Source: Ignavibacteriota bacterium
Lineage (GTDB): Bacteria; Bacteroidota; Ignavibacteria; Palsa-1295
Length of the DNA stretch: 64,000 nucleotides
Direction: 5' to 3'
NCBI GenBank assembly: GCA_963776895.1
Contig: CAVZOL010000001.1
Span: 25,321-89,320 of the forward strand
Each line of letters opens with the position of its first letter. Positions within the stretch are counted from its first letter, which is position 1. The position numbers and the translations under genes were made by a program. Shown one piece after another: positions 21,912 to 36,588 of this stretch. A model generated the notes under the pieces. The model ran no database searches. It was given only the letters and a program-made list of their open reading frames with translations, and had not been told where the DNA came from.

Positions 21912-22929
21912 TGTATATGCCCAACAACCCACGCAGCCTGCCGGACAGCCGGCTGGACAGCCCGCCGGTATAGCACCACCGGACTCCATCCTTACGGGCG
22001 AGCGACGTAAAGCGGAAGAACTGCGCAACAAGCAGGCGGCCGAACTTGCCCGTGAAGCCGAACAACACCGGCAAGATAGCCTCAAAGCTGCACAGCAGGA
22101 TCAACTCAATGCACAAGCCAAAGCCCGCGAGCAGGTACGCGAAGACTCTATTCGAGTTGCCCAGGAAACGGCCGAAGAGGAACGTCACGCAGCGTTCCTT
22201 CTTACCCCGGAACCCTGGCGCGCGATCGGATTAGGAGTAAATGCCGGCGTTGCAAGCATACCAGGCACAGCGGTCAATAGCGGCATATTGTCTCCTACAT
22301 CTGTATTTGCGGATGGTTTTCAGATCAGGTCGGAAATAACTCGCAGACTCAATATTGCCGCTTCGTTTACCCATTCCGAGTTCAGCCAGAGTTACCCATC
22401 AAACTATATTTATAACTATACCGACACCGCAGCCGGCGGTGGCCCTCCCACACCACCCAATCACCCCTATTCGCCCGGCCAGGATTATCAGCCGAATACA
22501 ACGAGAATGATACAGAGCGAAAGCTTCGGCATTTCCGTGATCGGTATCGACGTCGATTATACTATTACCAGACCGGCATCTATCATTAAATTCTATTTTG
22601 GGCTGGGATATCAACATTATATGATGGCGAGCGTTCAGAACTATCTTTTGATGAAGGATTCCCTGAATCCTTATCCAGGAATTGATACCTATGAACAGGA
22701 TTGGAGCCGCAATGGGATCGACATTGTGTTTGGAGCAAAGGGCGAGATCGAGCTTGGTAATGGACTGACCTTGGAACCTTATGCGGAAGTTACAGCCACG
22801 GGATTGTTCAACGGGCCGACACAGTTCGATTCATTTATCTTTCAACCGCTCAAGACCACTCTCATCACCGATAATGTCCGGGCGGGCTTCACGGTTTATT
22901 TCGGCTGGTGGGGCGTTCCTCGCCAATAA
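21892..22929 (+). CDS. Hypothetical secreted/outer-membrane protein with (QPAG)3 repeat and coiled-coil-like segment
   Basis: 345 aa. The in-frame upstream residues ...SLLLVLGLLMGAANVYAQQ resemble a signal peptide, but I see no clear start codon for it. The C-terminal half is beta-rich. Confidence 0.5.
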   Translation: MLMGAANVYAQQPTQPAGQPAGQPAGIAPPDSILTGERRKAEELRNKQAAELAREAEQHRQDSLKAAQQDQLNAQAKAREQVREDSIRVAQETAEEERHAAFLLTPEPWRAIGLGVNAGVASIPGTAVNSGILSPTSVFADGFQIRSEITRRLNIAASFTHSEFSQSYPSNYIYNYTDTAAGGGPPTPPNHPYSPGQDYQPNTTRMIQSESFGISVIGIDVDYTITRPASIIKFYFGLGYQHYMMASVQNYLLMKDSLNPYPGIDTYEQDWSRNGIDIVFGAKGEIELGNGLTLEPYAEVTATGLFNGPTQFDSFIFQPLKTTLITDNVRAGFTVYFGWWGVPRQ

Positions 22930-23015: not shown

Positions 23016-25354
23016 ATGGACGCAGCAACCCACGAAGGCGCTATTGCCGCCTCAACAGCATCGCAAACCAACGGCCGCATCTCTGCCGATGGCCGGGACG
23101 TGCGCGGCCAGCGTGCCAGTGATGGTCGTACACCCGCCCGATTAGCGCTCCGATGGTCCGGTGCAACGAACGATGAACTCTATGCCGACAAGCTGAACGA
23201 ACTGCTGGCAGCCTGCCGAAAAAATCTTCACTTTCTCGACGAAGAACTGGTCATTCGTGCCTTCCGGCTTTGTTACGAAGCACATAAGAACGATCGCCGC
23301 GCTTCAGGTGAGCCGTACTTTATTCATCCGTTCGAAGTCTCGATGATCGTCGCGCAGGAAATTCCGCTCAATGATATTTCCATCGTTGCCGCTTTGCTGC
23401 ACGATGTCGTGGAAGATACTGCGTATCAGATCGAGGAAATACGCGAAGAGTTTGGCGCGGAAATAGCAGACATCGTCGATGGCGCTACCAAGATCACAGA
23501 CATTTTCAAATCCCGCGAGATCACGCAGGCCGAAAGTTACCGCAAGCTGTTGCTCTCCATGATCGGCGATGTCCGTGTGATGCTCGTGAAATTCGCCGAT
23601 CGCCTGCATAACATGCGGACGATCGAATATCTTGCCGCCCAAACGGCAGTTCCGCATGGCGAAGGAAACGCTGGATATTTATGCGCCCTTCGCGAACCGT
23701 TTTGGACTTGGAAAAGTAAAGTGGGAACTGGAAGATCTCGCATTCAAAGTCCTGAATCGTGAAGCCTATACGGATATTAAGCGTGCGCTTGCCGAAAAAC
23801 GGATCGAGCGCGAAACGTATATCGCCGGTTTCATCGAGCCGATCGTCGAAGCCCTGAAAGAGCAACATTTAAAATTTGAGATCGTGGGACGGCCAAAACA
23901 TATTTTCTCGATCTACAACAAAATGATGCGCCTCGGTAAAGGGCTGGACGAGGTCTATGATCTCTTCGCCGTTCGCATTTTGCTCGATACGCCCAACGAT
24001 AACGATTGCTTCGCCGTTTTCGGACTCGTCTCTTCTATTTATACCCCGGTTCCCGAACGATTTAAGAACTATATTTCGCTTCCAAAGAAGAATGGCTATC
24101 AATCGTTGCACACGACGGTTATTGGTCCGGATGGAAGAATGGTGGAAGTGCAAATTCGCAGCGCGCGCCATGCATGAGATCGCGGAAAAAGGCGTTGCAG
24201 CACATTGGAAATACAAAGAGCATATTTCTGCGACCGATCCTGATCTTGAAGAATGGGTTACCTGGGTACGCGATGTCTTTGAGCAACATGGCGAGGATGC
24301 ACCGAGCGCGCTCCTCGAAAGCTTCAAGCTCAATCTCTATCAGGATGAGATCTATGTGTTTACTCCTAAAGGGGAGTTACGCATCCTGCCGAAAGGCGCA
24401 ACCGCAGTCGATTTTGCCTTTGAAATTCATTCCCAAGTCGGCCTGCGTACTATTGGCGCAAAAGTGAATGGACGCATCGTGCCCTTGCATCAAAAACTGG
24501 CGAGCGGCGATCAGGTGGAGATCATCACTTCGAAGAACCAATCCCCGAATGCAGACTGGGAAAAATTTGTAGCGACACACAAAGCGCGCCAATATATTCG
24601 AAAATTCTTAAATGAAGAACAACGCGCTCGCGTTGCGCAAGGGCGCGAAATGTGGCAAAAGCGCCTTACGAAAGCAAAGCTGCATGTCAATGAAGACACG
24701 CTGATCCGCTTTGCCGCTACCACTCCTTTCGGAACCGTTGGTAAATTCTACGCTGCCATTGCGGCAGCCGACATTGACATTGAAGAATACTTCAAGCGTC
24801 TGCGCGACTGGCTGCGCCCGGGTAATCGACCGGTTCCCACTGCGGAAACGGAAGCAGAAGAACCGACGACTGTCAACTACCTCGACACATCTCGCGCCAC
24901 AACGGGCATTCTCATTCAAGGTCGGCGCGATAATTTTCTGTATAGCTATGCAAAATGTTGCAATCCTGTACCGGGCGATGATGTCGTTGGCGTCGTTACG
25001 ATCGGCCAGGGCATCAAGATCCATCGGGCAAGTTGTAAAAATATTCAGAAGCTGCAGGCAGATTCCGAGAAACGCCTCATCGACGTATCGTGGCCCAGCA
25101 CCGACGAAGGCGCCGATTATCTCGTCGGAATTCGCATCTTTGGCGAAGACCGGCCCGGAATGTTAAGCGATCTCACGCATACTATTTCGACATACAATAA
25201 TACCAATATCCGCTCCGTTAATATCGACTCGCGTGATGCCATGTTCGATGGCAAAGTAACCGTCTTTGTAAAAAATACCTATCATCTCGCCCGGTTGATG
25301 GAAAAATTGAAAAAAGTACGCGGCGTAACCAGCGTAGAACGATTTGAAGAATAA
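23016..25354 (+). pseudogene. relA: Bifunctional (p)ppGpp synthetase/hydrolase RelA/SpoT homologue, split by two 1-nt shifts (~23631-23637, ~24165-24170)
   Basis: HD domain (HPFEVSMIVA, LLHDVVEDT); synthetase (GRPKHIFSIYNKM, YQSLHTTV, EVQIR); then MHEIAEKGVAAHWKYKE, TGS and ACT-like regions. Three overlapping track ORFs cover one ~779-codon gene. Confidence 0.88.
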
Positions 25355-25781: not shown

Positions 25782-25806
25782 AAAAACCCGCCGATGGGCG
25801 GGTTTC
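25782..25806. terminator. Bidirectional intrinsic terminator between convergent ruvX and the tail-fibre-like cluster
   Basis: AAAAACCCGCC-GATG-GGCGGGTTT: a 7-9-bp stem with A-tract and T-tract on either side. Confidence 0.75.
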
Positions 25807-25831: not shown

Positions 25832-27655
25832 CTACTCTTGCTCTGATCCCGCGAGAGGCATGGCCTGCCTCAATTCCATTGCACAATCGTGAGCTGCCGT
25901 GCGTGTTTGAGGATCCGGATGTAAAAGATACTCCTTCACTTCCTTTCTTAGATCATCTGCTGAGCCGGCAGATGTGGCTATTGCTCCTATTTTTGTTTTC
26001 ATGATCCGAACCAGACCATCGAACGACTTGAGATGTCGGATATTTTTATCAAGCTCCCCAGCCGCAGACGAAGAACCAGCGACAGGCCTCATATCTTCAG
26101 GAACTATTGAAATCGCATCCTTTGGACCCATTCCCGATTGTGATGCCAGAATCGCATCCGAACTTTCCGTCTCATTCCTCAATTGGCTTTCCGATACTAC
26201 TTCACGCAGCAATTCGGATCGTTGTTGCGGATCGGTCTGCAGCATGGCTTCTGCTAACGTGTTCAGTCTTACATTCCTCGAAGCTACTTCTGCTTTCTGC
26301 GCAGCAACTTCCGCGTGCAGCGAATCGAGTTCCGCCTGTTCCTTGCTTGCAATTTCACTGATATCGTTCGCACTTAATCCGATCGCTACATTGATAAGGC
26401 TAACTCCCTGACCCTCGGAAGCGGACCACGCTCTGCCCAGAACCGTTGTAAATTGTTTCGGGGTAATACTGCCAGGTGCAAGGGCCATGCCCACACCATC
26501 GTTCCGTCCGGAAGGGACAATAAAATCACCCTTATGTACGATGCCCCGCACCTTCACGGGTACCTGGCCAAGGAATGCGACTTTGCTATACTCGGACTCT
26601 TCGCCTTTCGCAGGAACGTTTCCCAACACGATCGGCGCCAAAGAAATAGCAAACACACTTTGGGCACCGGTAGTCGTCTTTGCAATTAGTCCATCGGTCA
26701 TTCCTACAATATCACCGGGATACAAATGTTCGTCCGCATCGGCGTGTTTCAGGTATTCTGCATAATCTCCGGCCGACGAAGTGTAGGCAACTCCTAAGCT
26801 GGAGGTTTTCGAAGCGATTTCAGCGGCCCAATTCGCGAGATCGTCAGCATCGGCAATAGCCTTCGCGGCATTCCCAGCAGAAACAGCTGGATCGTCACTT
26901 GCCGCGGCCTCTTCGACATCTTCGGCGGTTTCTTTCAGCCCGATAACGAGTTCTGTAGCCTCGCTCAGAACATAGAACGGATCATTTCCCAGATCCGTCA
27001 TATCTTGTCCTTGAATCGAACCGCGAGGGTTGCCAGCTCCATCGATAAAATCAATAAAGTGCGTACCGCTGTTAAGCCCACCCCCCGAAGCAGAGCAGTT
27101 TACAGTAAGCCCGGGGGTTCCTGCGGCCGGAGGAGCATCGATCACGAGCGGTTCCGACGATGTAACCGTACCACTGGCATCGCTTATGTGGGAATCGCCG
27201 ATGGCCGTGTCACCCACTTTCCATAGGGGAATCGTATTCAGCGTTCCGGTGCCATTGACCAGCCCAAGCTGGCCCGAGGCGGCATAATCCCAGGCTCCCG
27301 ATGGGCCTCCGGTATTGCCATCTGCTGTGATGCTGTTCTGGTTCGGCGGGATCCAATACAAGAGCTGAGGAACAACAGAACCACCCGATGGCCCCGAATA
27401 AACAAACCCCGCCTGGGCGTTACTCAATGGAGGCAGTGAGGGGATCAAGGTGAGGGGCAGAAACGGTGGAGTCGTGGTAGCCCATTGATTCCATTCCAAA
27501 GACCCGGAAATGGGGGTACGGTAGATCATCGTATGACCATGGGAATCATCAAGAATGAGCGCACCGGCACCGATTGCGCGTACTTGGCTCTTTGCCGAAC
27601 CAATCCAGGCAGTATAAACCACCAATGAGAAAAATGCAAGTAGAATGCGTTTCAT
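25832..27655 (-). CDS. Secreted tail-fibre/appendage-like protein, paralogue 1
   Basis: Likely start MKRILLAFFSLVVYTAWIGSAKSQ (signal peptide). The N-terminal domain is shared with 27666..29504 and 31158..33311. The block YTSSAGDYAEYL..PGDIVG..FLGQVPVKVRGIVHKGDFIV resembles phage appendage C-terminal autoproteolytic (peptidase G2-like) domains. A coiled coil and a ~110-aa C-terminal module follow. Confidence 0.7.
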   Translation of the reverse strand: MKRILLAFFSLVVYTAWIGSAKSQVRAIGAGALILDDSHGHTMIYRTPISGSLEWNQWATTTPPFLPLTLIPSLPPLSNAQAGFVYSGPSGGSVVPQLLYWIPPNQNSITADGNTGGPSGAWDYAASGQLGLVNGTGTLNTIPLWKVGDTAIGDSHISDASGTVTSSEPLVIDAPPAAGTPGLTVNCSASGGGLNSGTHFIDFIDGAGNPRGSIQGQDMTDLGNDPFYVLSEATELVIGLKETAEDVEEAAASDDPAVSAGNAAKAIADADDLANWAAEIASKTSSLGVAYTSSAGDYAEYLKHADADEHLYPGDIVGMTDGLIAKTTTGAQSVFAISLAPIVLGNVPAKGEESEYSKVAFLGQVPVKVRGIVHKGDFIVPSGRNDGVGMALAPGSITPKQFTTVLGRAWSASEGQGVSLINVAIGLSANDISEIASKEQAELDSLHAEVAAQKAEVASRNVRLNTLAEAMLQTDPQQRSELLREVVSESQLRNETESSDAILASQSGMGPKDAISIVPEDMRPVAGSSSAAGELDKNIRHLKSFDGLVRIMKTKIGAIATSAGSADDLRKEVKEYLLHPDPQTRTAAHDCAMELRQAMPLAGSEQE

Positions 27656-27665
27656 AAAAGTACTT

Positions 27666-29504
27666 TTATTGTTTAATTGAAAAAATGTTGAACAACCGGT
27701 CGATCGGCTCACCGGAACTTTCCATTTCATTTCCCGATTGCGTTCCTGATACTACTTCATGGAGCAACGCTACTCGTTGTTGCGGGTCGGTTTGCAGCAT
27801 GGCTTGCTCTAACCTGTCTTGCCACACGTTTTGTGAAGCCACTTCTGCCTTCTGCGCAACCACTTCCGCGTGCAGCGAGTCGAGTTCCGCCTGCTCATTA
27901 CTTGCAATTTCACTAATATCGTTCGCACTTAATCCGACCGCTACCTTTATAAGGTTAACTCCTTGACCCTCGGAAGCGGACCACGCCCTGCCCAGAACCG
28001 TTGTAAATTGTTTCGGGGTAATACTGCCGGGTGCAAGGGCCATGCCCACACCATCGTTCCGTCCGGAAGCGACAATAAAATCACCCTTATGTACGATGCC
28101 CCGCACCTTCACGGGTACCTGACCAAGGAATGCGACTTTGCTATACTCGGACTCTTCGCCTTTCGCGGGAACGTTTCCCAACACGATCGGCGCCAAGGAG
28201 ATAGAGAATACACTTTGCGCACCGGCGGTCGTCTTCGAAATTAGTCCATCGGTCATTCCTACGACATCGCCAGGAAAGAGATGTTCATTACTATCGGAGC
28301 GCATCAGGTATTCCGCATAATCTCCAGCCGACGAAGTGTAAGCAACTCCTAAGCTACCGCTTAGCGAAGTGATTTGAGCTCCCCAATTCACGATACCGTC
28401 ACCATCGGCAGCAGCCTTCGCGACATTCCCAGCAGAAACGGCATAATCGTCCTCTGCCATGGCTTCTTCGGCAGCGCCCAAAACCTCTTCGGCAACGCCC
28501 GCAGCATCTTCGGCAACGCCCGCAGCTATTTCTGCAATGCCCAGACCTACATCGATGGCCCCCTCGGCCGCGGTAATGGGGTCCACGAGGAGAACATCTC
28601 CGATACCCTCTTCTATACCGCCATCGGTTTCCTCGACGGTGGCCTCGGCTTCATCGGCGACACCCTCGGCCTCATCGGCAACGGCCTCGGCAGTCTCGGC
28701 GTCGCCCTCGGTCTCGGCCGCGGCCGCTTCGACATCTTCGGCGGCTTGTTTCGCCACGCTAACGGCTTTTGAAGCCTCATCCAGAACATAGAAGGGATCA
28801 TTGTCGAGATCAGTCTGATCCTGTCCTTGAATCGACCCACGCGTGTTGCCGGCACCATCGATAAAGTCAATAAAGTGCGTACCGCTATTAAGGTCAGTCG
28901 AAGCCGTGCAATTTACGGTAAGCCCGGGCGTTCCTGGGGCTGGCGGAGCATCGATCACGATCGGTTCCGACGATGTAACCGTCCCGCTGGCATCGCTTAT
29001 ATGGGAATCGCCAATGTCGGTGTCGCCCACTTTCCATAGGGGAATCGTGTTCAGCGTTCCGGTGCCGTTCACCAGCCCGAGCTGGCCCGAGGCGGCATAA
29101 TCCCAGGCTCCCGATGGGCCTCCGGTATTGCCATCTGCAGTGATGCTATTCTGGTTCGCAGGGATCCAATACGAGAGTTGAGGTACAACAGAACCACCCG
29201 GTGGTCCTGCATAAACGAACCCTGCCTGGGCGTTATTCGATGGAGGAAGCGAGGGAATCAAGGTCAGTGGCATAAACGGTGGAGTCGTGGTACCCCACTG
29301 AGTCCATTCCAAAGACCCTGCAATTGGGGTACGGTAGATCATGGTATGACCTACACCATCATCGAGAATGAGTGCACCGGCGCCGATCGCACGAGGTGTT
29401 TGTGCATACAGTTTCGACGATCCAAATAATGAGAAACTGCTTAGAAACAGAACGACAAAAGAAATACGTCGCATCGAACCTCCGGAATAGATGAAAAGGG
29501 ACAA
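27666..29504 (-). CDS. Secreted tail-fibre/appendage-like protein, paralogue 2 (C-terminally truncated, acidic repeat insert)
   Basis: Signal peptide ...SFSLFGSSKLYAQ. There are ~300-nt blocks at ~97% nucleotide identity to paralogue 1. It has an extra Ala/Glu/Gly/Val-rich insert and lacks the final module of paralogues 1 and 3. Confidence 0.7.
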   Translation of the reverse strand: MSLFIYSGGSMRRISFVVLFLSSFSLFGSSKLYAQTPRAIGAGALILDDGVGHTMIYRTPIAGSLEWTQWGTTTPPFMPLTLIPSLPPSNNAQAGFVYAGPPGGSVVPQLSYWIPANQNSITADGNTGGPSGAWDYAASGQLGLVNGTGTLNTIPLWKVGDTDIGDSHISDASGTVTSSEPIVIDAPPAPGTPGLTVNCTASTDLNSGTHFIDFIDGAGNTRGSIQGQDQTDLDNDPFYVLDEASKAVSVAKQAAEDVEAAAAETEGDAETAEAVADEAEGVADEAEATVEETDGGIEEGIGDVLLVDPITAAEGAIDVGLGIAEIAAGVAEDAAGVAEEVLGAAEEAMAEDDYAVSAGNVAKAAADGDGIVNWGAQITSLSGSLGVAYTSSAGDYAEYLMRSDSNEHLFPGDVVGMTDGLISKTTAGAQSVFSISLAPIVLGNVPAKGEESEYSKVAFLGQVPVKVRGIVHKGDFIVASGRNDGVGMALAPGSITPKQFTTVLGRAWSASEGQGVNLIKVAVGLSANDISEIASNEQAELDSLHAEVVAQKAEVASQNVWQDRLEQAMLQTDPQQRVALLHEVVSGTQSGNEMESSGEPIDRLFNIFSIKQ

Positions 29505-29623
29505 GAGTAATAAAGAATAGCGTTAGTAATACGCTACAAAGATACGTACATTTTTATCATGTTCGATTAAATATGTAAAAATAATTTTAAAACATTTATT
29601 ATTGTGATTTAAAAAATTTTTGA

Positions 29624-29791
29624 TTAAATTCCAATCTCATACAGCAACCCTTCAAATCCTTTTACGCCATCGGAATGCTCGGCATAAAACGTCTCTTCGC
29701 CCTCATCTAATTGGGTTAGCTCACTCTTCAGATATTCGAATGCCTCCTGCGGTGTGTCGGAAAAGAGGATATTCATATTTTCTACCTTCAT
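29624..29791 (-). pseudogene. Remnant of the 3' end of a LOG-family gene (duplicate of 33646..33729)
   Basis: (MKVEN)MNILFSDTPQEAFEYLKSELTQLDEGEETF... parallels the frame-corrected LOG C-terminus LIHFSDTPKEAFEYLKSELTRLDEGEETF. About 85% nucleotide identity over ~84 nt. Confidence 0.7.
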
Positions 29792-29850
29792 TAGACGACG
29801 GAGCCGAGAGAGGTTTGTCCGGGGATATCTACGCGAGAGCAAATTAAAAT

Positions 29851-29873
29851 GGGCCGGAGCAAAGCTCCGGCCC
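29851..29873 (-). terminator. Intrinsic terminator after the 230-aa tail-fibre-like gene
   Basis: Minus-strand GGGCCGGAGC-UUU-GCUCCGGCCC followed by AUUUUAAUUU, 35 nt after the stop at 29908. Confidence 0.75.
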
Positions 29874-29907
29874 ATGCGCTCTTTCTGTTATTTTTTACAG
29901 ATTAGAA

Positions 29908-30600
29908 TCAGTGAATCACAATATAATTGAACACCGCCGACGTAACTCCCGTACCATTGTCCTTGACATTCAGAATGAAGTTATTGGCAGAGGGCGTCAC
30001 ATAATACCCGGTTATATTTCCACCCTGCTGGGCATTGAGGGAAGCCGGCGTAATCACCACGACAGGAGAGCCTGTGTAAGAAGTACCGAAGGGAACTGTC
30101 ACAGTACCTTCCCCAGCAGAAGAGGCGGTGGTTAACGTGATCGTCCCGGAAACATCGCTGCCAGAGACAGTCGCACTGGTGACGATCGTTCCATCGTCAG
30201 TAGCCGTCTGTGCGGAACCCGAACTTAACACATGGGTTGCAGTGATCTCAGATCCGGCGAAATTACCGGAAGCATCGCGCTCCACGAGTGTACTTGCCGT
30301 ATTGGTAGATCCATAAGCAAGCGAAATGAGTTGCTTGCTGCCATTGGTGGCAACGGCCTGGTTCGCGGAGAGCGAAGAGACCGTTACGTTCCCAGTGAAT
30401 GTCCTATTTCCACCAAAGCTTTGATTGCCCTGATCCAGAACGAAATTCGCCGTCGCCGTGCCCGGATCGGGGATGGTGTACGTGGTGTTCTGGGCAAGTG
30501 TTGGCTCGACAATGACCGTACCGCCATTGGCCGTTCCTAATAGCCCTAAGGAACTGCCTATTATGATTCCTTTCGTCCCCATTCCGTCGCTAAAAACCAC
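29908..30600 (-). CDS. Tail-fibre-like beta-rich protein (230 aa)
   Basis: Gly/Thr/Ser/Asn-rich, with no signal peptide. The motif TLVERDASGNFAGSEITA is of the kind seen in phage tail-fibre shafts (from memory). Confidence 0.55.
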   Translation of the reverse strand: MVFSDGMGTKGIIIGSSLGLLGTANGGTVIVEPTLAQNTTYTIPDPGTATANFVLDQGNQSFGGNRTFTGNVTVSSLSANQAVATNGSKQLISLAYGSTNTASTLVERDASGNFAGSEITATHVLSSGSAQTATDDGTIVTSATVSGSDVSGTITLTTASSAGEGTVTVPFGTSYTGSPVVVITPASLNAQQGGNITGYYVTPSANNFILNVKDNGTGVTSAVFNYIVIH

Positions 30601-30626
30601 GGAGGTGTCCGTTGGAGTCGAAAGCG

Positions 30627-31124
30627 TTAAAACCCTCCCCGTGGCCCACCGTGGCGAGTTCCAAACCAGCTTGCAACATCATCCCCCCACGACTCGATCG
30701 TGCCACCGATCGAGCTCACGCCACTGCTGATTCCACCGCCAATTTCACTCTCGATCCACGGCCAGGCTGTATTTTCCAGCCAATTGAGAATCATATTCCC
30801 AATATCCCCGAATTCGGATGTCAACTGGTCGCTCCACGAATTATCCACGCTGTCTTCGAGCGCCGTAGAATCCGCTAAGGTAGGCGTATCGCTAAAAACC
30901 ACGATCTCGTTTAAGTCCATCGCGCTCTTGGCACGATTGGCGAAGAGGCAGTCATGTACCGGATTCGCCTTTTCCATAATTCCGGCAGCAAACAACGCTG
31001 GGGTACATAATGGCATGTTCTCCGAAAGGACAACAGTCCTGCCACTGGCATAATGCGCTTCCGATGGCATGGCCGAAAAGGAAGAGAGCGCTACGAAAAC
31101 CAATAAGATTACTAAATTTCTCAT
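30627..31124 (-). CDS. Secreted hypothetical protein (165 aa), Trp/Gly/Ser-rich C-terminus
   Basis: Signal peptide MRNLVILLVFVALSSFSAMPSEA. No recognised domain. Lies between paralogue 3 and the 230-aa gene. Confidence 0.5.
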   Translation of the reverse strand: MRNLVILLVFVALSSFSAMPSEAHYASGRTVVLSENMPLCTPALFAAGIMEKANPVHDCLFANRAKSAMDLNEIVVFSDTPTLADSTALEDSVDNSWSDQLTSEFGDIGNMILNWLENTAWPWIESEIGGGISSGVSSIGGTIESWGDDVASWFGTRHGGPRGGF

Positions 31125-31157
31125 AAAATCTCCTCAATAAATAATGATAAAGATAAA

Positions 31158-33311
31158 TTAGTGAGTCTGGTTTGAAGGACTGTTAGCCACAGAGCTATTC
31201 ACTCTGGATTTCGCCATTTGAACCGATTCCATGGCACAGTCAATTATCGCAGACGCCGTCGTCGGATCATTAGTCGGATGCAAGAGTAATTGCTTAATCC
31301 GGTCGGACTTGGATTGACGGGTATCCGAGGAGGTCATAATCTTTCGAATGTTGTCCTTCATAGCCTGCATCGCACGATCGTAAGATTGAAGGTGCTGGAT
31401 GTTACCCATTTCCTTCAGATCTGAGGCCGTTATTGTAAAACCCTTGGTATAATCTGTTAAAGGTTTCCCTGTAGCAAACGACGGATTTTTTAGAACCGGC
31501 ATCGTGGAAACGATCGGTTTCGAAACGATCGGTTGTGCCAACGGCTGAGGTGATGCCGGCGGTTGAGATGATGCCGGCGGCTGTGCCATTGGCTGAACCG
31601 GAGGTTGCTGCTGTGCCTCGGCAAGGAGCGTTTGCTTCTTTGCCGGATCCGATTCCGTCATCGCCTGCTCCAGCTTCTGAAACCGTGTGTTCATCGAGGC
31701 GATCTGCGACTCGGACTCGGATTTCACTGCTGCGATCTCAGCCTCCTGCCGGCTCACGATCTCGCTCATGTCCTTTGCGCTGAGTCCGATCGCAACTTTA
31801 ACGAACCCGACATCGCCACCCTCTGAAGAAGTCCAGGCTCTGCCAATCACTTGCGTGAATTGCTGCGGTGTAATCTTGTCCTCAGCGATAGCCACTCCAA
31901 AGCCATCGTTCAGGCCGGAAGCCACAATAAAATCGCCGGGATGCACTGCGCCATGCACCTTGACCGGAACCTGACCCAGGAAGCCAACCTCATTATAATT
32001 AGCGGCTTCGCCCGATGGCGGTTGGTTACCGAGCACGATGGGAGCCGTGGATATGGAATAAATACTTTGCGCGCCCTCGGTATTCTTCGATATCATGCCA
32101 TTCTTGACACCCACGACATCTCCGGGAAAGAGAAATTCCGAAGTATCGGCTCGCCGAAGGTATTCGGCATAATCCGCACCCGACGAGGTGTACTGCACTC
32201 CTGCATCGATGGACTCCGCAGCAACAATCGCTGCGTCCGTCGCATCCGTGGCTATAATTCCCGGAATCTGGGCTGCAAAGATGAGCGCATTGATAAGGGC
32301 AACCGGCGCCTCGAAAATGTCTGCGGCTGCGATAGTCGAAGAATAGGAACCGGCGACATAGACGATGAGCAGGATGGTATAAACGATCGAGGCTGCAATG
32401 TACCCATCGTAGGTGGGACTCTCTAAAAGATCGACGTTGCTCTGCCCTTTTACGGATCCACGAGTCGAGCCGGATCCATCCACAAAATTGAGGAAGTATG
32501 AATTATGATCGAGCGACGTGCCCGACGCGGTAGAATGTATATTGATCGTGCCGGTATCATCGAAGGTTCCATTATTGTATTCGCCCTGTGGAAGGAAGAT
32601 CGGGCTGTTCGCATTACCAAGCGTGACCTTGCCCGTCGCCGACCCGTTCAATATAAGAGAGCCAGTTGTGGCATCTTCAAGATCAACGGTAGAACCATTG
32701 ATGTAAACGTCATTACCCGTGTTTCCAATTGACGTGGTGGCGGTTCCCGTCGTGTTTATGGTGGTCGTTCCTGTAACATTCATCCCGCCGGTGAAATCCA
32801 CCTTCTCGGTCGTGGAAACCGTCGTTCCGTCATCATTGAGGCTGGAAGTTCCCAGGCTGGTATCCGTGGACCAGATTGGGAGATAGGTGGGCGTCGTGGT
32901 ATGACCGCTAATGATGTTGAGCTGCCCCTCACCGGCGTAATCCCATGCACCGGCATACCCTCCGGTATTTCCATCCCCACTCCAGCTCGTCTGCCCTGGT
33001 GGAAGCCAGTAGGCAAGCTGAGGAACTGTTGTCCCACCCAAAGGACCGGCATAAATGAAACCGGCCTGAGCATTATTAGCAGGAGGCACCGGAACACTCC
33101 ACTGTAGTGGCTTGAACGCAGGTGATGTCAGTGACCACGCCGTCCACTCCGGAGATGGATCAACAGGCGCGGTAAGCGTCACGACGTGACCGTGGTTATC
33201 ATCGAGGACCAACGCACCAGCCCCAACACCCCGGGTTTGTGCATGTGTTGTACCTATACCGAAGGCCATGGCAAGCCCCAGTGCGATTGCAAAAATGAAT
33301 TTAGATCTCAT
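31158..33311 (-). CDS. Secreted tail-fibre/appendage-like protein, paralogue 3
   Basis: Signal peptide MRSKFIFAIALGLAMAFGIGTTHAQ. It has the same N-terminal domain, the same YTSSGADYAEYL..GDVVG..FLGQVPVKVHGAVHPGDFIV block, a coiled coil and the C-terminal module (NIQHLQSYD..LLLHP..IIDCAMES). It also has an extra Thr/Gly/Asn-rich segment and a Pro/Gln-rich linker. Confidence 0.7.
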   Translation of the reverse strand: MRSKFIFAIALGLAMAFGIGTTHAQTRGVGAGALVLDDNHGHVVTLTAPVDPSPEWTAWSLTSPAFKPLQWSVPVPPANNAQAGFIYAGPLGGTTVPQLAYWLPPGQTSWSGDGNTGGYAGAWDYAGEGQLNIISGHTTTPTYLPIWSTDTSLGTSSLNDDGTTVSTTEKVDFTGGMNVTGTTTINTTGTATTSIGNTGNDVYINGSTVDLEDATTGSLILNGSATGKVTLGNANSPIFLPQGEYNNGTFDDTGTINIHSTASGTSLDHNSYFLNFVDGSGSTRGSVKGQSNVDLLESPTYDGYIAASIVYTILLIVYVAGSYSSTIAAADIFEAPVALINALIFAAQIPGIIATDATDAAIVAAESIDAGVQYTSSGADYAEYLRRADTSEFLFPGDVVGVKNGMISKNTEGAQSIYSISTAPIVLGNQPPSGEAANYNEVGFLGQVPVKVHGAVHPGDFIVASGLNDGFGVAIAEDKITPQQFTQVIGRAWTSSEGGDVGFVKVAIGLSAKDMSEIVSRQEAEIAAVKSESESQIASMNTRFQKLEQAMTESDPAKKQTLLAEAQQQPPVQPMAQPPASSQPPASPQPLAQPIVSKPIVSTMPVLKNPSFATGKPLTDYTKGFTITASDLKEMGNIQHLQSYDRAMQAMKDNIRKIMTSSDTRQSKSDRIKQLLLHPTNDPTTASAIIDCAMESVQMAKSRVNSSVANSPSNQTH

Positions 33312-33619
33312 GACAAGTGTCTCCTAAAAAATAGCAAAAAGGTGTACTGACCGACGGCAAGGCAGCAGAATTTTTACAAAAATACGAAATTTTTACAAAC
33401 CCTCAAAAGAAACGACCGTTCGTTGTGATGTTACACGCTGAATTGCATTGCACTTACACAACTATTATCAGGAGAAAATCACCTTACCTGCGCGAATAAA
33501 CAGGATTATGGCAATCGAATTAATCATGAAGAATGAAAATTATTTTTTTTTCTATCCTATTTTTTTTGATTTAAATTTGGCAAGAAATGCAACTTTCTGA
33601 CAGCAATCTTTCTATTGCT

Positions 33620-34607
33620 TTATGACAACGGGTTGCTCTGTAAAAACGTCTCTTCGCCTTCATCTAAGCGGGTTAGCTCGCTCTTCAGATATTCGAATGC
33701 TTCCTTGGGTGTGTCGGAGAAGTGGATAAGATTCGAGATCGCTTCGCGCGATCATGCCGTAGTATTCGAGCTTATCGAAATCAATGATCTCATCCCAATA
33801 ACTTTTACCATAAATAACGACCGGCATTTTCTTTCGAATTTTTCCCGTCTGGATGAGTGTGAGGCATTCAAAAAGTTCGTCAATAGTTCCAAATCCTCCG
33901 GGAAACACCACAAGCGCCTTGCTGAGGTACGCAAACCAGAATTTGCGCATAAAAAAGTAATGGAACTCAAAATTCAGTTCATCGGTGATAAAGCTGTTCG
34001 GCATTTGCTCGAATGGGAGCGAAATGTTAAAGCCTATAGATTTTCCACCGGCGAGCGTAGCGCCTTTATTCGCAGCTTCCATGATCCCCGGACCTCCGCC
34101 GGAACAGATCACATACCGCTGCTTGAACGAATGCGTTTTTATGGTAGCGACGTTCACGTAAGGAATTTGCTCCTTGACTTGTGCGGCAGCGACCATTCCT
34201 TTTGTCAACTGTGCTTTTTCATACGTCTGCGCGGCCTCCGTGATGGACCAATCCGTGATCATACGCGCAAGCTCGACCGCTTCTTCGTAGTAACGCGAAA
34301 GTTCCTTATGCCGCGTGGCGCGCCGAACGGCTTCCGTCAGTTCCGCTTCCACTTCGGGCGTGCAGGAGTTCGTTTGGAGCGCAAGCGCGCGAGCGTTTTC
34401 GAGCTGATGCAGCGCAGCGCTAACTTCTTCCGGCGATTGAATGCGCGCAGAACCGAAGAACACGATGGTATCTTTCACACGCGCATGTGCGAGTCGCGTT
34501 CTCGGCTCAATATACTCCGCCAAAAGGCGAATGACCCGCGCCTCCGGGCTGGTGAGAAAATCTTCGTTCAAATAGGCCTTTTCGGCACGTTGTTTTACTG
34601 CTGACAT
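33620..34607 (-). pseudogene. LOG-family (TIGR00730-type) nucleotide phosphoribohydrolase-like protein, frame shifted near 33729-33734
   Basis: GGGPGIMEAANKGA and FPGGFGTIDELFE motifs. After ...ARSDLE the expected end LIHFSDTPKEAFEYLKSELTRLDEGEETFLQSNPLS* reads in another frame and stops at 33620. Confidence 0.82.
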
Positions 34608-34895: not shown

Positions 34896-35411
34896 TCACC
34901 AAAGAATAGCCATTGAGACCGAGAACCCGACAACAGCCTGAGCTATTAATGCAGAGCGAGCTATGGGAGCATATTTGGGTCGCAGGAGACCGATGGGAGT
35001 CCACCATGCCCAATAGGGTGACCGATCCAACAGCCCGCTGTTCGATCTGTTCTCCCAATCGGACGTAGGAAGGGCATCGGATGGTAGATTGAACAAATCA
35101 GCCCATCCGTAATAGAGAAGATCGTCATTCCATGTCCACCAGATCAGATTGAATGCGATGGCAGAACTCAGTCCGCATTGTTTATAGAGAAAATAAGAAA
35201 TCGCAGCCTGAACCGTTCCTTCCAGGATGCGATACGTGGGAAGAAAGCTTGTCCGATTCGCTAAATTATATCCCACATAATCGAAAAGGGAATACGCAAG
35301 CGAAGCGCCGACGACGTATTCATAGCATGCAATGCGGTTGCTATCGGCCTGCGCGCGCACCGGTGGAATAAAAACGAATGCAAGAAGAATAGCAACGACA
35401 AGTGTTCGCAT
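34896..35411 (-). CDS. Membrane/secreted protein of unknown family (paralogue A)
   Basis: Signal peptide MRTLVVAILLAFVFIPPVRAQA. It shares CGLSSAI.FNLIWWT..DD..YYGW.DL...WTPIGLLR...ALIAQAV.GFSVSMAI.W with the next gene. Confidence 0.6.
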   Translation of the reverse strand: MRTLVVAILLAFVFIPPVRAQADSNRIACYEYVVGASLAYSLFDYVGYNLANRTSFLPTYRILEGTVQAAISYFLYKQCGLSSAIAFNLIWWTWNDDLLYYGWADLFNLPSDALPTSDWENRSNSGLLDRSPYWAWWTPIGLLRPKYAPIARSALIAQAVVGFSVSMAILW

Positions 35412-35417
35412 GGATAA

Positions 35418-35972
35418 TTACCAGATAATAGCCATCGAAACGGAGAATCCAATAACAGCTTGCGCAATAAGCGCATTTTTTGCAATATAGCTCCCTTGTT
35501 GCCGAAGCAACCCGATGGGAGTCCATCCCGCGGAATTATATTCTGTAAATCGCAGGCCACTTTGCGCGCGGCTCTCCCATGGGAACCAGCTTAACAGATC
35601 GCCCCATCCATAATATGCAAAATCATCCCCACAGGTCCACCATATAAGATTGAACGAGATCGCAGAACTAAGTCCGCACATTTTATACAAAAAATAGGTG
35701 ATGGCTGCCTGCGTGATGCCGGCGCACAGCCTATAGGCAAAGGGAACTTGAAAGTCGCCGCCGCCGTAGGATTTCTTTACCAGATTGAATGCAGCATAAT
35801 CCGCAAGCGAAAAAGCCAGTGTCGCTCCGACAACGTATCCATAACGCTCGACCGGGGTGCTATCGGCCTGTGCTTTCGCAGAATCGTTAATGATCAGGAG
35901 AATCGCGCCGGCGAAAATTAGAAGGGTGTAGCGCCCAACTTTAGTTGGGCGAAATAATTTTTGCAGCATCAT
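35418..35972 (-). CDS. Membrane/secreted protein of unknown family (paralogue B)
   Basis: 184-aa tandem paralogue of 34896..35411. Its first ~15 codons (MMLQKLFRPTKVGRY) are encoded by the left REP hairpin and overlap the RayT 3' end. Confidence 0.6.
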   Translation of the reverse strand: MMLQKLFRPTKVGRYTLLIFAGAILLIINDSAKAQADSTPVERYGYVVGATLAFSLADYAAFNLVKKSYGGGDFQVPFAYRLCAGITQAAITYFLYKMCGLSSAISFNLIWWTCGDDFAYYGWGDLLSWFPWESRAQSGLRFTEYNSAGWTPIGLLRQQGSYIAKNALIAQAVIGFSVSMAIIW

Positions 35973-36588
35973 ATCGTGACGATAAATAAGTCCCCGGCCA
36001 ATCCTGCCACTGAGCCACCATCCCCGCTTTCACGGGATTCATAATAACATACCGAATAATTCGTTCCAGAGAACCGCGCCGCACGACATGGTCGTAGCTC
36101 TCATATTGCCAAAAATGTTGCCCAATGTGGCCGAGGAGTTTATTACAATTGCGGGCAGTTGCGCCCTTGAGCAGCCTCATGATTTCGAAGAGCTTGGCCT
36201 CACCCACGACATCTATGACAAGATGAATATGATTCGGCATGATACAAAAGGCATGAATGAATATAAGTCCTCGCGCTTCCAGCTCCATTAGTTTTTCGCG
36301 CACGATTCCGAGAATGGCGCGCCGCTGGAGATAATCGACCCCGCCATGAAGCATGTCAAGCGATTCATCGTAGGAATTAAAAAACTGACCCTCCCCTACA
36401 CTCCCACGAAGCGACTTCAACCTCGCGATCTCGATGGGAGAAAGTGAACCCGCAAGCCGCGTCGTCACAAAATATGGCGCGTCGTTCGGTAAATAATGCG
36501 GGAGCTTTCGACGGTAATCGTTGCTTCCGGGACGTTTTAACATTGTGCATAGAACAATTTCGACCAACTAAAGTTGGTCGCTACACCC
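35924..36588 (-). mobile_element. REPtron-like unit: RayT (REP-associated tyrosine transposase) gene flanked by inverted REP hairpins
   Basis: Left: GGGTGTAGCGCCCAACTTTAGTTGGGCGAAAT (35924-35955). Right, reverse complement: GGGTGTAGCGACCAACTTTAGTTGGTCGAAAT (36557-36588). Identity is 30/32, and each contains a 9-bp hairpin. Confidence 0.75.
35941..36567 (-). CDS. IS200/IS605-like Y1 transposase of the RayT (TnpA-REP) type
   Basis: 208 aa: KLPHYLPNDAPYFVTTRL, HAFCIMPNHIHLVIDV (HUH), WQYESYDHVV (catalytic Tyr region), IRYVIMNPVKAGMV. Confidence 0.8.
   Translation of the reverse strand: MVEIVLCTMLKRPGSNDYRRKLPHYLPNDAPYFVTTRLAGSLSPIEIARLKSLRGSVGEGQFFNSYDESLDMLHGGVDYLQRRAILGIVREKLMELEARGLIFIHAFCIMPNHIHLVIDVVGEAKLFEIMRLLKGATARNCNKLLGHIGQHFWQYESYDHVVRRGSLERIIRYVIMNPVKAGMVAQWQDWPGTYLSSRYDAAKIISPN

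What the first reader, a model, noticed from the sequence alone, without database searches (positions are those of the whole stretch)
25832..33311. Accessory cluster of three paralogous signal-peptide-bearing tail-fibre/appendage-like proteins with no other phage genes
Three large minus-strand genes (25832..27655, 27666..29504, 31158..33311) share several parts. (i) A Sec-type signal peptide. (ii) A ~230-aa N-terminal domain (AIGAGALILDD..GH..., NAQAGF[VI]Y[AS]GP.GG..VPQL.YW.P, DGNTGG..GAWDYA..GQL). (iii) A block Y[TS]SS[AG][GA]DYAEYL...PGD[IV]VG...FLGQVPVKV.G.VH.GDFIV.SG.NDG.G.A, which from memory resembles the autoproteolytic C-terminal chaperone region of phage appendage/tailspike proteins (peptidase G2 type). 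(iv) A coiled coil. (v) In two of the three, a ~110-aa terminal module. A 230-aa Gly/Thr-rich protein with a tail-fibre-shaft-like motif (VERDASGNFAGSEITA) and a 165-aa secreted protein lie between them. I see no capsid, terminase, tube, sheath, baseplate or integrase genes nearby. Phage fibres normally lack signal peptides. This looks like a host-owned family of secreted fibre-like proteins of unknown role (adhesin, surface appendage or bacteriocin-like receptor binder).
Basis: partly seen in the sequence, partly recalled or inferred. Interest (0 to 1): 0.68.

Follow-up and report, generated by a model that had tools for sequence, protein, structure and literature searches.

The report
Host-encoded self-cleaving fibre-like secreted proteins
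A soil or water bacterium of the Ignavibacteriota group carries, in its own chromosome and far from any phage genes, three copies of a secreted protein whose core is the self-cleaving folding cap known from a phage tail appendage; they are probably surface adhesion fibres of a kind recently described in the predator Bdellovibrio, but built with a different cap.

Summary
Three minus-strand paralogues exist (A 25832-27655, B 27666-29474, C 31158-33311). They share signal peptides, an N-terminal domain, a conserved central block and a coiled coil.

The central block is a true homologue of the self-cleaving intramolecular chaperone D4 of phage phi29 gp12 (Peptidase_G2). Profile alignment, AlphaFold plus Foldseek, and alignment of the known cut site (S691|D692) onto the invariant G/A|DYAEYL all support this.

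Three corrections:
- The "165-aa" and "230-aa" proteins are one gene, split by a single-base deletion. It ends in a probable H-type-lectin domain.
- The 83-aa ORF is a duplicated remnant of the neighbouring LOG gene.
- The G2 domain is internal, not terminal.

The 64-kb window is otherwise housekeeping, and the island sits at the same chromosomal site in three related genomes. The G2 module belongs to a large, mostly unannotated cellular family (about 1,900 clusters at 50% identity, mainly Bacteroidota and Ignavibacteriota). That family occurs in tandem arrays next to type-IX-secretion cargo genes. Its usual N-terminus matches the Bdellovibrio mosaic-adhesive-trimer (MAT) N-domain; the window proteins carry a different, lineage-restricted one.

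Best reading: Sec-exported trimeric adhesin fibres matured by G2 autocleavage. This is a new variant of a known kind. The function is inferred, not shown.

The parts
31158..33311 (-). Gene C, 717 aa. Layout: signal peptide (aa 1-25); lineage-specific N-domain (~26-170); Gly/Thr-rich shaft (~171-271); beta-hairpin motif YFLNFVDGSGSTRGSVKG (272-289); hydrophobic helical linker (290-379); G2 domain (380-~510); coiled coil (~511-570); Pro/Gln-rich spacer; helical C-terminal module (~629-710).
32172..32177 (-). Predicted autocleavage site in C, between Ala379 and Asp380 (YTSSGA|DYAEYL).
   Evidence: The family HMM aligns this D with phi29 gp12 D692. PDB chains show mature gp12 ending at 691 and the released fragment starting at 692. 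D380, Y381, A382 and E383 are invariant in the 22-sequence alignment.
31782..32174 (-). G2-type (phi29 gp12 D4-like) intramolecular chaperone domain of C.
   Evidence: AF2 pLDDT is above 90 here. Foldseek top PDB hits are 3gqh_A and 3suc, both probability 1.00. Twelve BFVD hits have E<=1e-3, the best 4e-8. Pfam PF11962 scores 22.9 bits, below the 25-bit cut-off.
27666..29474 (-). Gene B, 602 aa. Same plan as A, with a 167-aa strongly acidic linker (41 D/E). Predicted cut is Gly384|Asp385. It lacks the C-terminal helical module.
25832..27655 (-). Gene A, 607 aa. Signal peptide, N-domain, short shaft, hairpin FIDFIDGAGNPRGSIQG (aa 200-216), 80-aa acidic linker, predicted cut Gly296|Asp297, G2 domain, coiled coil, C-terminal helical module.
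29908..31124 (-). One gene (~405 aa), broken by a 1-nt deletion near 30628. Layout: signal peptide; ~160-aa N-part; Gly/Thr-rich shaft with the fibre repeat ...NTASTLVERDASGNFAGSEITA...; C-terminal ~100-aa beta-sandwich, probably an H-type lectin.
   Evidence: tblastn of the L001 and L003 orthologues. Full-length homologues P0098, P0099, P0100 and P0102. AF2 of P0098 gives pLDDT 73-89 for the last 100 aa. Foldseek top hits are discoidin II and Helix pomatia agglutinin. Pfam H_lectin is sub-threshold.
29598..29771 (-). Remnant copy of the LOG gene's 3' end plus spacer. It is 77% identical over 173 bp to 33560-33728. It marks the segmental duplication that created the B-A unit, and it explains the spurious 83-aa ORF 29624-29875.
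29849..29875 (-). Terminator-like hairpin (12 pairs, 9 G-C, then a T-run) just after the E/D gene. It ends the first transcription unit, C-E/D.
25783..25806 (-). Terminator-like hairpin (10 pairs) just after gene A. It ends the second transcription unit, B-A.
33377..33384 (-). TATTTTTG, a TAnnTTTG element (the Bacteroidetes-type -7 box, recalled from memory), about 66 nt upstream of the C start codon.
   Evidence: Read. Function not tested.
29537..29544 (-). TATCTTTG, a TAnnTTTG element about 63 nt upstream of the B start codon.
   Evidence: Read. Function not tested.

Best explanation
This is a chromosomal, lineage-conserved island of an Ignavibacteriota/Kapabacteria-like bacterium. It encodes Sec-exported, phage-fibre-like surface proteins.

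Each of the three paralogues would follow these steps:
1. Export by its signal peptide.
2. Trimerisation, nucleated by an internal phi29-gp12-type (Peptidase_G2) intramolecular chaperone together with the coiled coil that follows it.
3. Self-cleavage at the invariant G/A|DYAEYL.

Cleavage would leave a mature N-terminal piece of about 275-355 residues: the lineage-specific N-domain (probably the end that docks on the cell), a short Gly/Thr shaft, a conserved beta-hairpin and a variable helical tip. The cap (G2 domain, coiled coil and helical tail) would be shed.

The fourth gene (E+D) is a companion fibre ending in a probable sugar-binding H-type-lectin domain. Tandem duplication, traceable through the LOG-gene remnant, and divergence of shaft and linker give a small repertoire of binding specificities.

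Shown: paralogy; homology and fold of the G2 domain; conservation of the cut-site motif; chromosomal synteny; absence of phage genes; tandem arrays in relatives.

Inferred: export, trimerisation, cleavage, surface location and adhesion.
For: G2 homology:
- The family HMM against phi29 gp12 gives two collinear pieces, E 2.7e-9 for a single-target search. DFAEYFE aligns with DYAEYL.
- PDB chain limits place the gp12 cut at 691|692.
- The AF2 model has pLDDT above 90 over residues 380-570.
- Foldseek returns 3gqh_A and 3suc at probability 1.0 and 12 viral models at E<=1e-3 with rmsd about 3.4 A.
- D-Y-A-E is invariant in the 22-sequence alignment and present in 146 of 146 diverse family representatives.

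Host ownership:
- The context is housekeeping throughout.
- The island is flanked by the same LOG and ruvX/relA genes in L001-L003.
- tblastn of the module against 50,697 phage genomes finds nothing.
- In 79 viral ORFs the G2 domain is terminal (129-176 aa after the cut) and none has the upstream hairpin. The cellular proteins have 160-359 aa after the cut, and most have the hairpin.

Analogy to known secreted fibres:
- 63 of 65 Bacteroidota-type relatives match the Bdellovibrio MAT N-domain model.
- MAT fibres are signal-peptide-bearing trimers, many matured by a self-cleaving S74 chaperone (PMC10769870).
- phi29 gp12 D4 is needed for trimer folding and is then cut off (PMC3357383). The same was reported for Dpo31 D4 (PMC13317679).

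Companion lectin tip.

Duplication history.
Against: - No experiment bears on cleavage, trimerisation, location or binding.
- All three window proteins score below Pfam's Peptidase_G2 cut-off (13-23 bits against 25).
- The N-terminal 250 residues were modelled at pLDDT below 50, so "fibre" is not structurally shown. The mature piece would also be short for a fibre.
- The part that would be discarded (218-338 aa, with a conserved helical tail in A and C) is about as large as the part kept. That is odd for a throw-away cap and suggests it has its own role.
- From memory of Xiang et al. 2009, release of the gp12 cap needs ATP, which is absent outside the cytoplasm.
- No route across the outer membrane is evident: A, B and C have no T9SS C-terminal domain, no autotransporter barrel and no lipobox.
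- The window N-domain is unrelated to the MAT N-domain (no NCBIfam hit at E<=1; hhalign probability 0.1).
- C has two uncharged hydrophobic helices in its linker that could instead anchor it in the inner membrane.
- Several frameshifts in this stretch warn that the assembly has indel errors.
Confidence: 0.55

Rival explanations
1. The proteins are envelope-anchored rather than surface fibres. The hydrophobic helix-loop-helix between the hairpin and the cut site inserts into a membrane: the cell's own inner membrane as a helical hairpin, or a target membrane once the cap is removed. G2 cleavage then acts as a switch that frees or arms one part. The C-terminal fragment (G2, coiled coil, helical tail) is a functional product, not waste.
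For: - C has two uncharged hydrophobic helices of at least 17 residues in the linker (KD19 maximum 1.97).
- 82 of 121 family members scored (113 representatives plus the 3 window proteins and 5 syntenic relatives) have at least one such segment.
- 44 of 113 representatives have a Cys pair in the linker, and many of the linkers printed show a conserved C.GLGAC.T.PIPSLI turn between the two helices.
- The post-cleavage part is long and conserved.
Against: - A and B, in the same island, have acidic, non-hydrophobic linkers (KD maximum 0.71 and 1.30), so membrane insertion cannot be the common mechanism here.
- The hydrophobic stretches are Ala/Val/Gly-rich, often contain Asp or Glu, and could simply be the buried core of a trimeric helical bundle.
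- No transmembrane predictor was available.
Confidence: 0.15
2. The genes are leftover or domesticated fibre genes of a prophage, tailocin or contractile injection system. They serve a particle encoded elsewhere in the genome.
For: - The G2 chaperone is otherwise known from phage appendages and tailspikes.
- The E/D shaft repeat (STLVERDxSGNFSAG) also occurs in proteins carrying the phage-type S74 chaperone (P0106).
Against: - There is no capsid, terminase, portal, tube, sheath, baseplate, integrase or lysis gene in 64 kb.
- The chromosomal position is conserved in genomes whose orthologues are only 39-74% identical.
- All members carry signal peptides. That fits export, not cytoplasmic particle assembly.
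- The hairpin-linker-G2-coiled-coil module is absent from 79 viral G2 ORFs and from 50,697 phage genomes.
- In 60-odd other genomes the neighbours are T9SS cargo and outer-membrane proteins, not phage genes.
Confidence: 0.05
3. The proteins are secreted toxins or bacteriocin-like effectors. The fibre part binds a receptor, and the cleaved C-terminal part, or the small ORF between the genes, acts as toxin or immunity.
For: Tandem, diverging paralogues with a processing site resemble polymorphic toxin loci in outline. There is a small acidic ORF between the two units.
Against: - No toxin, immunity, lysis or dedicated secretion domain was found in Pfam, NCBIfam or PHROGs.
- The small ORF is a pseudo-ORF made of a terminator and a LOG-gene remnant.
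- The C-terminal parts are conserved, not polymorphic.
Confidence: 0.04
4. The proteins are structural cell-envelope or matrix proteins, such as S-layer-like or sheath components, with no specific ligand. The G2 domain serves only as an assembly aid.
For: They are exported, probably oligomeric and multi-copy, and they are widespread in filamentous or gliding Bacteroidota such as Saprospiraceae and Haliscomenobacter.
Against: - The companion gene has a lectin-like tip.
- Relatives carry carbohydrate-binding, collagen-like or YadA-head N-parts, typical of adhesins.
- The copy number and sequence of shaft and linker vary between close genomes. That fits a ligand-facing role better than a uniform lattice.
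Confidence: 0.1

Closest known systems
Bdellovibrio bacteriovorus mosaic adhesive trimer (MAT) fibres (Caulton et al. 2024, PMC10769870; NCBIfam NF053851 Bdello_MAT_N)
   Same: - Both are cell-encoded, multi-copy and carry signal peptides.
- Both have a conserved domain directly after the signal peptide, a phage-fibre-like shaft and variable distal parts.
- In most MAT members a self-cleaving intramolecular chaperone ends the protein.
- The wider family that shares the window's G2 module usually carries a MAT-type N-domain (63 of 65).
   Different: - The window proteins have another N-domain.
- The chaperone is the phi29 G2 type, not S74. None of the MAT tips listed in the paper's text or Supplementary Table S3 is of the G2 type.
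- The chaperone is internal and is followed by a coiled coil and a helical tail.
- The pre-cleavage part is much shorter (about 300-380 aa, against about 1,000).
- No link to predation is known for this organism.
Phage phi29 gp12 pre-neck appendage, domain D4 (Peptidase_G2, PF11962; PDB 3GQH, 3SUC), and the D4 of tailspike Dpo31
   Same: Same fold, same collinear sequence motifs and the same cut-site motif x|D-[YF]-A-E-[YF]. In phages the domain drives trimer folding and is then cut off.
   Different: - In phages the domain is the very C-terminus (129-176 aa after the cut in 79 viral ORFs) and follows a beta-helix or prism.
- Here it is preceded by a conserved beta-hairpin and a 80-167-aa helical linker, and followed by 70-190 more residues.
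- The protein is exported, so it folds outside the cytoplasm.
- Scores fall below Pfam's cut-off.
S74-type intramolecular chaperone proteins (K1F endosialidase, T5 pb1, eukaryotic MYRF)
   Same: Same logic: a C-terminal trimerising cap that cleaves itself off once the fibre is folded.
   Different: The fold and catalytic motif are unrelated (Ser-Lys SDxxxK in S74). No S74 match was found in A, B or C.
Trimeric autotransporter adhesins (YadA family)
   Same: Both are exported, probably trimeric, and have a head-stalk-coiled-coil organisation. Some family relatives carry YadA-head repeats (PF05658 in P0059 and P0073).
   Different: There is no C-terminal beta-barrel anchor domain. The self-cleaving G2 domain has no counterpart in autotransporters.

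Membership tests
Peptidase_G2 / phi29 gp12 D4-type intramolecular chaperone | Fold of the gp12 C-terminal fragment | tested here: met
   The AF2 model of C has pLDDT above 90 over this region. Foldseek gives 3gqh_A at E 3e-4, probability 1.0, TM(target) 0.56, and 3suc. BFVD's best hit is E 4e-8 over ~142 columns at rmsd 3.4 A.
Peptidase_G2 / phi29 gp12 D4-type intramolecular chaperone | Cut-site motif x|D-[YF]-A-E-[YF], aligned with gp12 S691|D692 | tested here: met
   The HMM alignment puts gp12 W690-S691-D692-F-A-E-Y on the family's G/A-D-Y-A-E-Y. PDB chains give the cut position. The motif is invariant in A, B and C.
Peptidase_G2 / phi29 gp12 D4-type intramolecular chaperone | Score above Pfam PF11962 gathering threshold (25 bits) | tested here: not met
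   A scores 18.0, B 13.3 and C 22.9 bits. Some relatives pass, for example Flavivirga L020 at 31.9 bits. The window proteins are therefore a divergent branch.
Peptidase_G2 / phi29 gp12 D4-type intramolecular chaperone | Domain forms the C-terminus of the protein | tested here: not met
   218-338 residues follow the cut in A, B and C, against 129-176 in 79 viral ORFs and 163 in gp12.
Peptidase_G2 / phi29 gp12 D4-type intramolecular chaperone | Trimerisation, autoproteolysis and ATP-dependent release | not testable with these tools
   Only monomer prediction was available.
MAT (mosaic adhesive trimer) fibre family | Signal peptide directly followed by the conserved ~130-aa MAT N-domain (NF053851) | tested here: not met
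   Signal peptides are present by inspection. No NCBIfam hit at E<=1 for A, B or C. hhalign of the window N-domain against the Bacteroidota MAT-like N-domain gives probability 0.1. By contrast, 63 of 65 Bacteroidota relatives hit NF053851 (best E 4.5e-13, below the 60-bit cut-off).
MAT (mosaic adhesive trimer) fibre family | Trimeric beta-helical fibre shaft | tested here: inconclusive
   The shaft region has pLDDT below 50 in the monomer model. Its Gly/Thr-rich repeats are compatible with a fibre but prove nothing.
MAT (mosaic adhesive trimer) fibre family | C-terminal S74 chaperone or an adhesive tip domain | tested here: not met
   A, B and C have no S74 match and carry a G2 domain instead. 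The companion E/D protein does have a lectin-like tip.
Prophage / tailocin / contractile injection system fibre | Neighbouring structural, assembly or lysis genes of a phage-like particle | tested here: not met
   The Pfam-scanned ORFs flanking the island across the 64-kb window (30 in all) are housekeeping or carry no phage-type domain. Syntenic loci show the same flanks.
Type IX secretion cargo | C-terminal T9SS sorting domain | tested here: not met
   A, B, C and E/D have no Por_Secre_tail or TIGR04183 match. In relatives the sorting domain sits on neighbouring genes, not on the G2 proteins.
Trimeric autotransporter adhesin | C-terminal YadA-type membrane anchor | tested here: not met
   No such Pfam match. 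The C-termini are helical.
H-type lectin (for the C-terminus of the E/D gene) | H_lectin domain (PF09458) sequence and fold | tested here: inconclusive
   Pfam is sub-threshold in three homologues (E 0.22, 0.084, 0.048). Among the five best Foldseek matches are discoidin II (rank 1, probability 0.94) and Helix pomatia agglutinin (rank 4, probability 0.97, TM(target) 0.58), but E-values are only 0.06-0.2.

The most novel reading that the evidence does not exclude
The hairpin, helix-loop-helix, G2 and coiled-coil module is not just a folding cap. It is a cleavage-armed device found across the FCB superphylum. Removing the G2 cap would expose a hydrophobic, often disulfide-looped helical tip that inserts into a target (or own) membrane. 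In addition, the conserved operon partners in Bacteroidota (a ~170-aa T9SS-sorted protein, and in Flavobacteriia a small outer-membrane barrel) would form a new route that carries proteins lacking a sorting domain to the cell surface.
Probability: 0.12. Interest if true: 0.8.

Novelty: new variant of a known kind. Interest (0 to 1): 0.55.

Why it matters
Cell-owned copies of phage fibre machinery were shown only in 2024 to be working surface adhesins, in the predator Bdellovibrio. This locus, and the roughly 1,900-cluster family it led to, indicates three things:

- A second, unrelated self-cleaving chaperone (the phi29 G2 type) has been recruited for the same purpose.
- The recruitment is on a large scale, in Bacteroidota, Ignavibacteriota and some other phyla.
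- The recruited module has additions that no phage version has.

Most members fall below Pfam's threshold and are annotated as hypothetical. The family is common in environmentally important gliding, filamentous and possibly predatory bacteria, and several members are in cultured strains (Flavivirga, Psychroserpens). Cleavage, surface display and binding targets are therefore directly testable. For the window itself the practical gain is a corrected gene map and a concrete, falsifiable function for four unannotated genes.

Tried and rejected
- A single-sequence search of C against the PDB found nothing. A full-length family profile against the PDB returned only coiled-coil noise such as haemagglutinin HA2. 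Homology to gp12 appeared only with a profile trimmed to the block and a direct comparison.
- NCBIfam found nothing meaningful for the window proteins. PHROGs gave only weak hits to an unannotated family.
- A search with A's N-terminal region found only two further proteins, so the N-domain could not be placed or modelled. hhalign to the MAT-like N-domain was negative.
The 22-sequence alignment worked.
- I suspected that the 277-aa gene upstream of the C orthologue in L001 was a T9SS cargo. Pfam does not support this.
- I considered the 83-aa ORF as an immunity or partner gene. It is a pseudo-ORF.
- Cluster-member and contig look-ups gave no names or provenance for the window proteins.
- Literature searches for Peptidase_G2 in bacteria, for T9SS plus intramolecular chaperones, and for Ignavibacteria fibres found no study of this family.
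- The prophage, toxin and autotransporter readings were rejected for the reasons given under the rival explanations.

Full report
**What is there**

ORF listing confirms three large minus-strand genes at the stated coordinates:
- A: 25832-27655, 607 aa.
- B: 27666-29474, 602 aa from the ATG that the public gene call also uses.
- C: 31158-33311, 717 aa.

A and B are 80% identical, and C is 44% identical to A. Pairwise BLASTP E-values run from 1e-94 to 1e-137, so the paralogy is not chance.

All three start with a typical export signal: a basic n-region, a hydrophobic core, then ...AKS|Q, ...YAQ|T and ...HAQ|T. This was judged by eye, because no predictor was available.

They share:
- an N-terminal domain of about 150 residues;
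- a Gly/Thr-rich stretch, about 85 residues longer in C;
- a conserved motif HFIDFIDGAGNxRGSIQGQ;
- a variable linker;
- the block YTSS..DYAEYL...FLGQVPVKV...GDFIV.SG.NDG;
- a long helix.

A and C also share a helical C-terminal module.

**Corrections to the gene map**

The 165-aa "secreted protein" (30627-31124) and the 230-aa "Gly/Thr-rich protein" (29908-30600) are two halves of one gene.
- Orthologues in two syntenic loci (410 and 398 aa) align to both halves in two reading frames.
- A search with the rejoined sequence finds four full-length proteins of 398-410 aa at 100% coverage.
- The junction (GGPRGGF-S-TLSTP in the closest relative) shows that the window lacks one base near 30628.

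The 83-aa ORF 29624-29875 is not a gene.
- It begins inside a strong terminator-like hairpin (29875-29849, 12 pairs).
- Its conserved part is a 173-bp, 77%-identical copy of the 3' end of the LOG gene and of the spacer upstream of C (29598-29771 against 33560-33728).
- It is the scar of the segmental duplication that produced the B-A pair.

The island therefore has two transcription units, C-E/D and B-A. Each is preceded by a TAnnTTTG element about 65 nt before the start codon (the promoter consensus is from memory). Each is followed by a hairpin terminator.

The window also has other genes read in more than one frame:
- relA is read in three frames.
- LOG has its true C-terminus in another frame.
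- TatD and the next ORF form one gene in a relative.

The frameshifts may therefore be assembly errors.

**The conserved block is a phi29-type self-cleaving chaperone**

- Pfam gives only sub-threshold Peptidase_G2 hits: 13-23 bits against a cut-off of 25.
- Many homologues carry that Pfam assignment.
- An HMM of the block, compared directly with phi29 gp12, aligns two collinear pieces (E 2.7e-9 for the one target). It places gp12 S691|D692-FAEYFE on the family's G/A|D-YAEYL.
- The PDB holds mature gp12 as residues 88-691 and the released fragment as 692-854, which fixes the cut.
- An AlphaFold2 model of C built on 70 homologues has pLDDT above 90 across residues 380-570.
- Its best Foldseek matches in the PDB are that released fragment (3gqh_A, probability 1.0, TM 0.56) and premature gp12 (3suc).
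- Twelve predicted viral structures match at E<=1e-3, the best at 4e-8 over about 142 columns at 3.4 A. They include "preneck appendage" proteins.
- D-Y-A-E is invariant in the close family and present in all 146 diverse representatives examined.

In phages this domain is needed for trimer folding and is then removed (PMC3357383; PMC13317679).

**Not phage, but a chromosomal island**

The Pfam-scanned ORFs flanking the island, 30 across the 64-kb window, are housekeeping or unremarkable: the his operon, obg, relA, ruvX, LOG, nadA, gcvT, ppx, tmk, alr, a release factor and a tRNA synthetase.

Three other contigs have the same arrangement (nadA, two small membrane proteins, LOG, island, ruvX, relA). 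One of them is titled an Ignavibacteriota MAG. The numbers of paralogues differ.

The N-terminal domain of A, B and C is confined to this narrow lineage. Its first ~40 residues (R.IGAGAL.LDD..GHT) are also shared by neighbouring non-G2 genes of the island in relatives. That fits a common docking end.

**The wider family**

A scan of 185,579 species genomes returned 65 loci. They are mainly Bacteroidota: Saprospiraceae, Flavobacteriaceae (including cultured Flavivirga and Psychroserpens), Chitinophagales and Cytophagales. Ignavibacteriota and Kapaibacterium are also represented. A few loci come from Planctomycetota, Anaerolineae, a cyanobacterium and others.

My own ORF calling and clustering of these loci gave the following:
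- The G2 genes sit in same-strand tandem arrays of one to six.
- They are very often preceded by a ~165-190-aa protein with a type-A T9SS sorting domain and a conserved N-part.
- In Flavobacteriia an outer-membrane beta-barrel gene lies between that protein and the G2 gene.
- They are often followed by a giant T9SS cargo gene.
- None of the recurrent neighbour families that I scanned is a phage gene family.

A profile search of 1.84 billion representative proteins gives 1,881 clusters at E<=1e-30 and 34,206 at 1e-10. The weaker tier may include unspecific coiled-coil or fibre matches. Most strong members stay below Pfam's G2 threshold.

The cellular module differs from the phage one in a consistent way.
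- In 79 G2-bearing ORFs from viral contigs, the domain is the C-terminus (129-176 residues after the cut), and none has the upstream hairpin motif.
- In the cellular proteins, the cut site is preceded by the hairpin F..F.D....GRIEG and a helix-loop-helix linker of a few discrete lengths. This linker is usually hydrophobic and often has a Cys-bridged turn.
- The cellular domain is followed by a coiled coil, giving 160-359 residues after the cut.
- tblastn of C's module against 50,697 phage genomes finds nothing.

**Link to the known kind**

The N-termini of the Bacteroidota-type members match NCBIfam's Bdello_MAT_N model in 63 of 65 cases (best E 4.5e-13, below the curated cut-off).

Bdellovibrio MAT fibres are the published precedent (PMC10769870):
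- signal peptide;
- conserved ~130-aa N-domain, thought to sit at the cell surface;
- trimeric fibre;
- swappable tips;
- in 13 of 21 members, a self-cleaving S74 chaperone, shown experimentally.

That paper lists relatives in the FCB group with collagen-like, beta-sandwich, invasin or S74-like tips, but no G2 type.

The window proteins share the G2 module of this superfamily but not its N-domain. I therefore do not file them as MAT members. They most probably work like them.

**The companion gene**

Only the last ~100 residues of the rejoined E/D protein (modelled through its 71%-identical relative) are confidently predicted. They form a beta-sandwich.
- Among its five best Foldseek matches are the H-type lectins discoidin II (rank 1) and Helix pomatia agglutinin (rank 4), at probabilities 0.94-0.97 but E-values of only 0.06-0.2.
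- Three homologues give sub-threshold Pfam H_lectin hits.

A sugar-binding tip is therefore probable but not established.

**Mechanism and its weak points**

The most likely mechanism has four steps: export, trimerisation templated by the G2 domain and coiled coil, self-cleavage at G/A|DYAEYL, and display of the N-terminal piece as an adhesin.

Open problems:
- There is no evident path across the outer membrane.
- The mature piece is short.
- The "discarded" piece is large and conserved.
- The phage cap needs ATP for release (my memory of Xiang et al. 2009).
- C, unlike A and B, has two membrane-like helices in its linker.

These points keep alive a rival in which the module is a membrane-directed, cleavage-armed device.

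**Verdict**

The remembered G2 resemblance is right. The host-owned reading is right, but the kind is already known since 2024. This is a new variant, with a G2 chaperone instead of S74, an elaborated internal module and a lineage-specific N-domain. It led to a large uncharacterised family.

Noticed in passing
window 23016-25354; 33660-33760; 20962-22929: Several housekeeping genes are read in more than one frame. relA/spoT is read in three frames. The LOG gene's true C-terminus (…FSDTPKEAFEYLKSEL…) is in another frame from about 33700. TatD plus the next ORF form one 624-aa gene in locus L003. Together with the E/D break, this suggests indel errors of a long-read assembly rather than pseudogenes.
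   Followed up: partly
window 35941-36567 (-): An IS200-like Y1 transposase ORF (Pfam Y1_Tnp, E 2.5e-10) lies between nadA and the small membrane-protein pair. It is absent from the syntenic loci L001-L003.
   Followed up: no
window 34896-35411 and 35418-35972 (-): Two paralogous ~170-184-aa proteins (51% identical) each have an N-terminal signal-like segment and a hydrophobic C-terminus. They have no Pfam match. They are conserved next to LOG and the island in L001-L003. Whether they belong functionally to the island is unknown.
   Followed up: no
window 58990-60909 (-): A 639-aa protein has weak FlgD_ig and T9SS sorting-domain matches at its C-terminus, so the organism probably has a type IX secretion system.
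   Followed up: no
loci L010-L066 (for example L014:1889-2419, L020:7944-8441, L034:7240-7755): A ~165-190-aa protein lies directly upstream of the G2 gene arrays in most Bacteroidota and Ignavibacteriales loci. It has a signal peptide, a conserved N-part (…GG…l.WTlGE…t.GF.QP) and a type-A T9SS sorting domain. It may be a dedicated partner. The window's island has no such gene.
   Followed up: partly
loci L011, L018-L020, L026, L029, L030, L032, L033, L037, L057: In Flavobacteriia a ~215-aa outer-membrane beta-barrel gene (one member scanned: Pfam OMP_b-brl, E 6e-7) sits between the small T9SS protein and the G2 gene, in places overlapping the G2 gene by a few bases.
   Followed up: partly
family representatives P0109-P0123 and loci L016, L018, L032 and others; linker between hairpin and cut site: A conserved Cys-x5-Cys turn, …S.S..C.GLGAC.T.PIPSLI…, lies between two hydrophobic helices. 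44 of 113 representatives have a Cys pair in the linker. 82 of 121 proteins scored (113 representatives plus the 3 window proteins and 5 syntenic relatives) have an uncharged hydrophobic segment of at least 17 residues. The function is unexplained.
   Followed up: partly
loci L046, L056 (Haliscomenobacter), L059, L028: Up to six tandem ~610-aa G2 paralogues occur in one array, followed by a 2,500-2,850-aa gene. This is the largest expansion of the family seen.
   Followed up: no
loci L048, L060, L068: Giant (~3,500-aa) proteins end in the same G2 module. They come from Marinamargulisbacteria and unclassified bacteria and lack the hairpin motif.
   Followed up: no
proteins P0086, P0087, P0090; P0041, P0062; P0059, P0073; P0060, P0077: Family members carry N-parts other than the MAT-like domain: CBM96 carbohydrate-binding module, collagen repeats, YadA-head repeats, and FG-GAP or beta-propeller domains. 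The G2 module therefore acts as a portable cassette.
   Followed up: no
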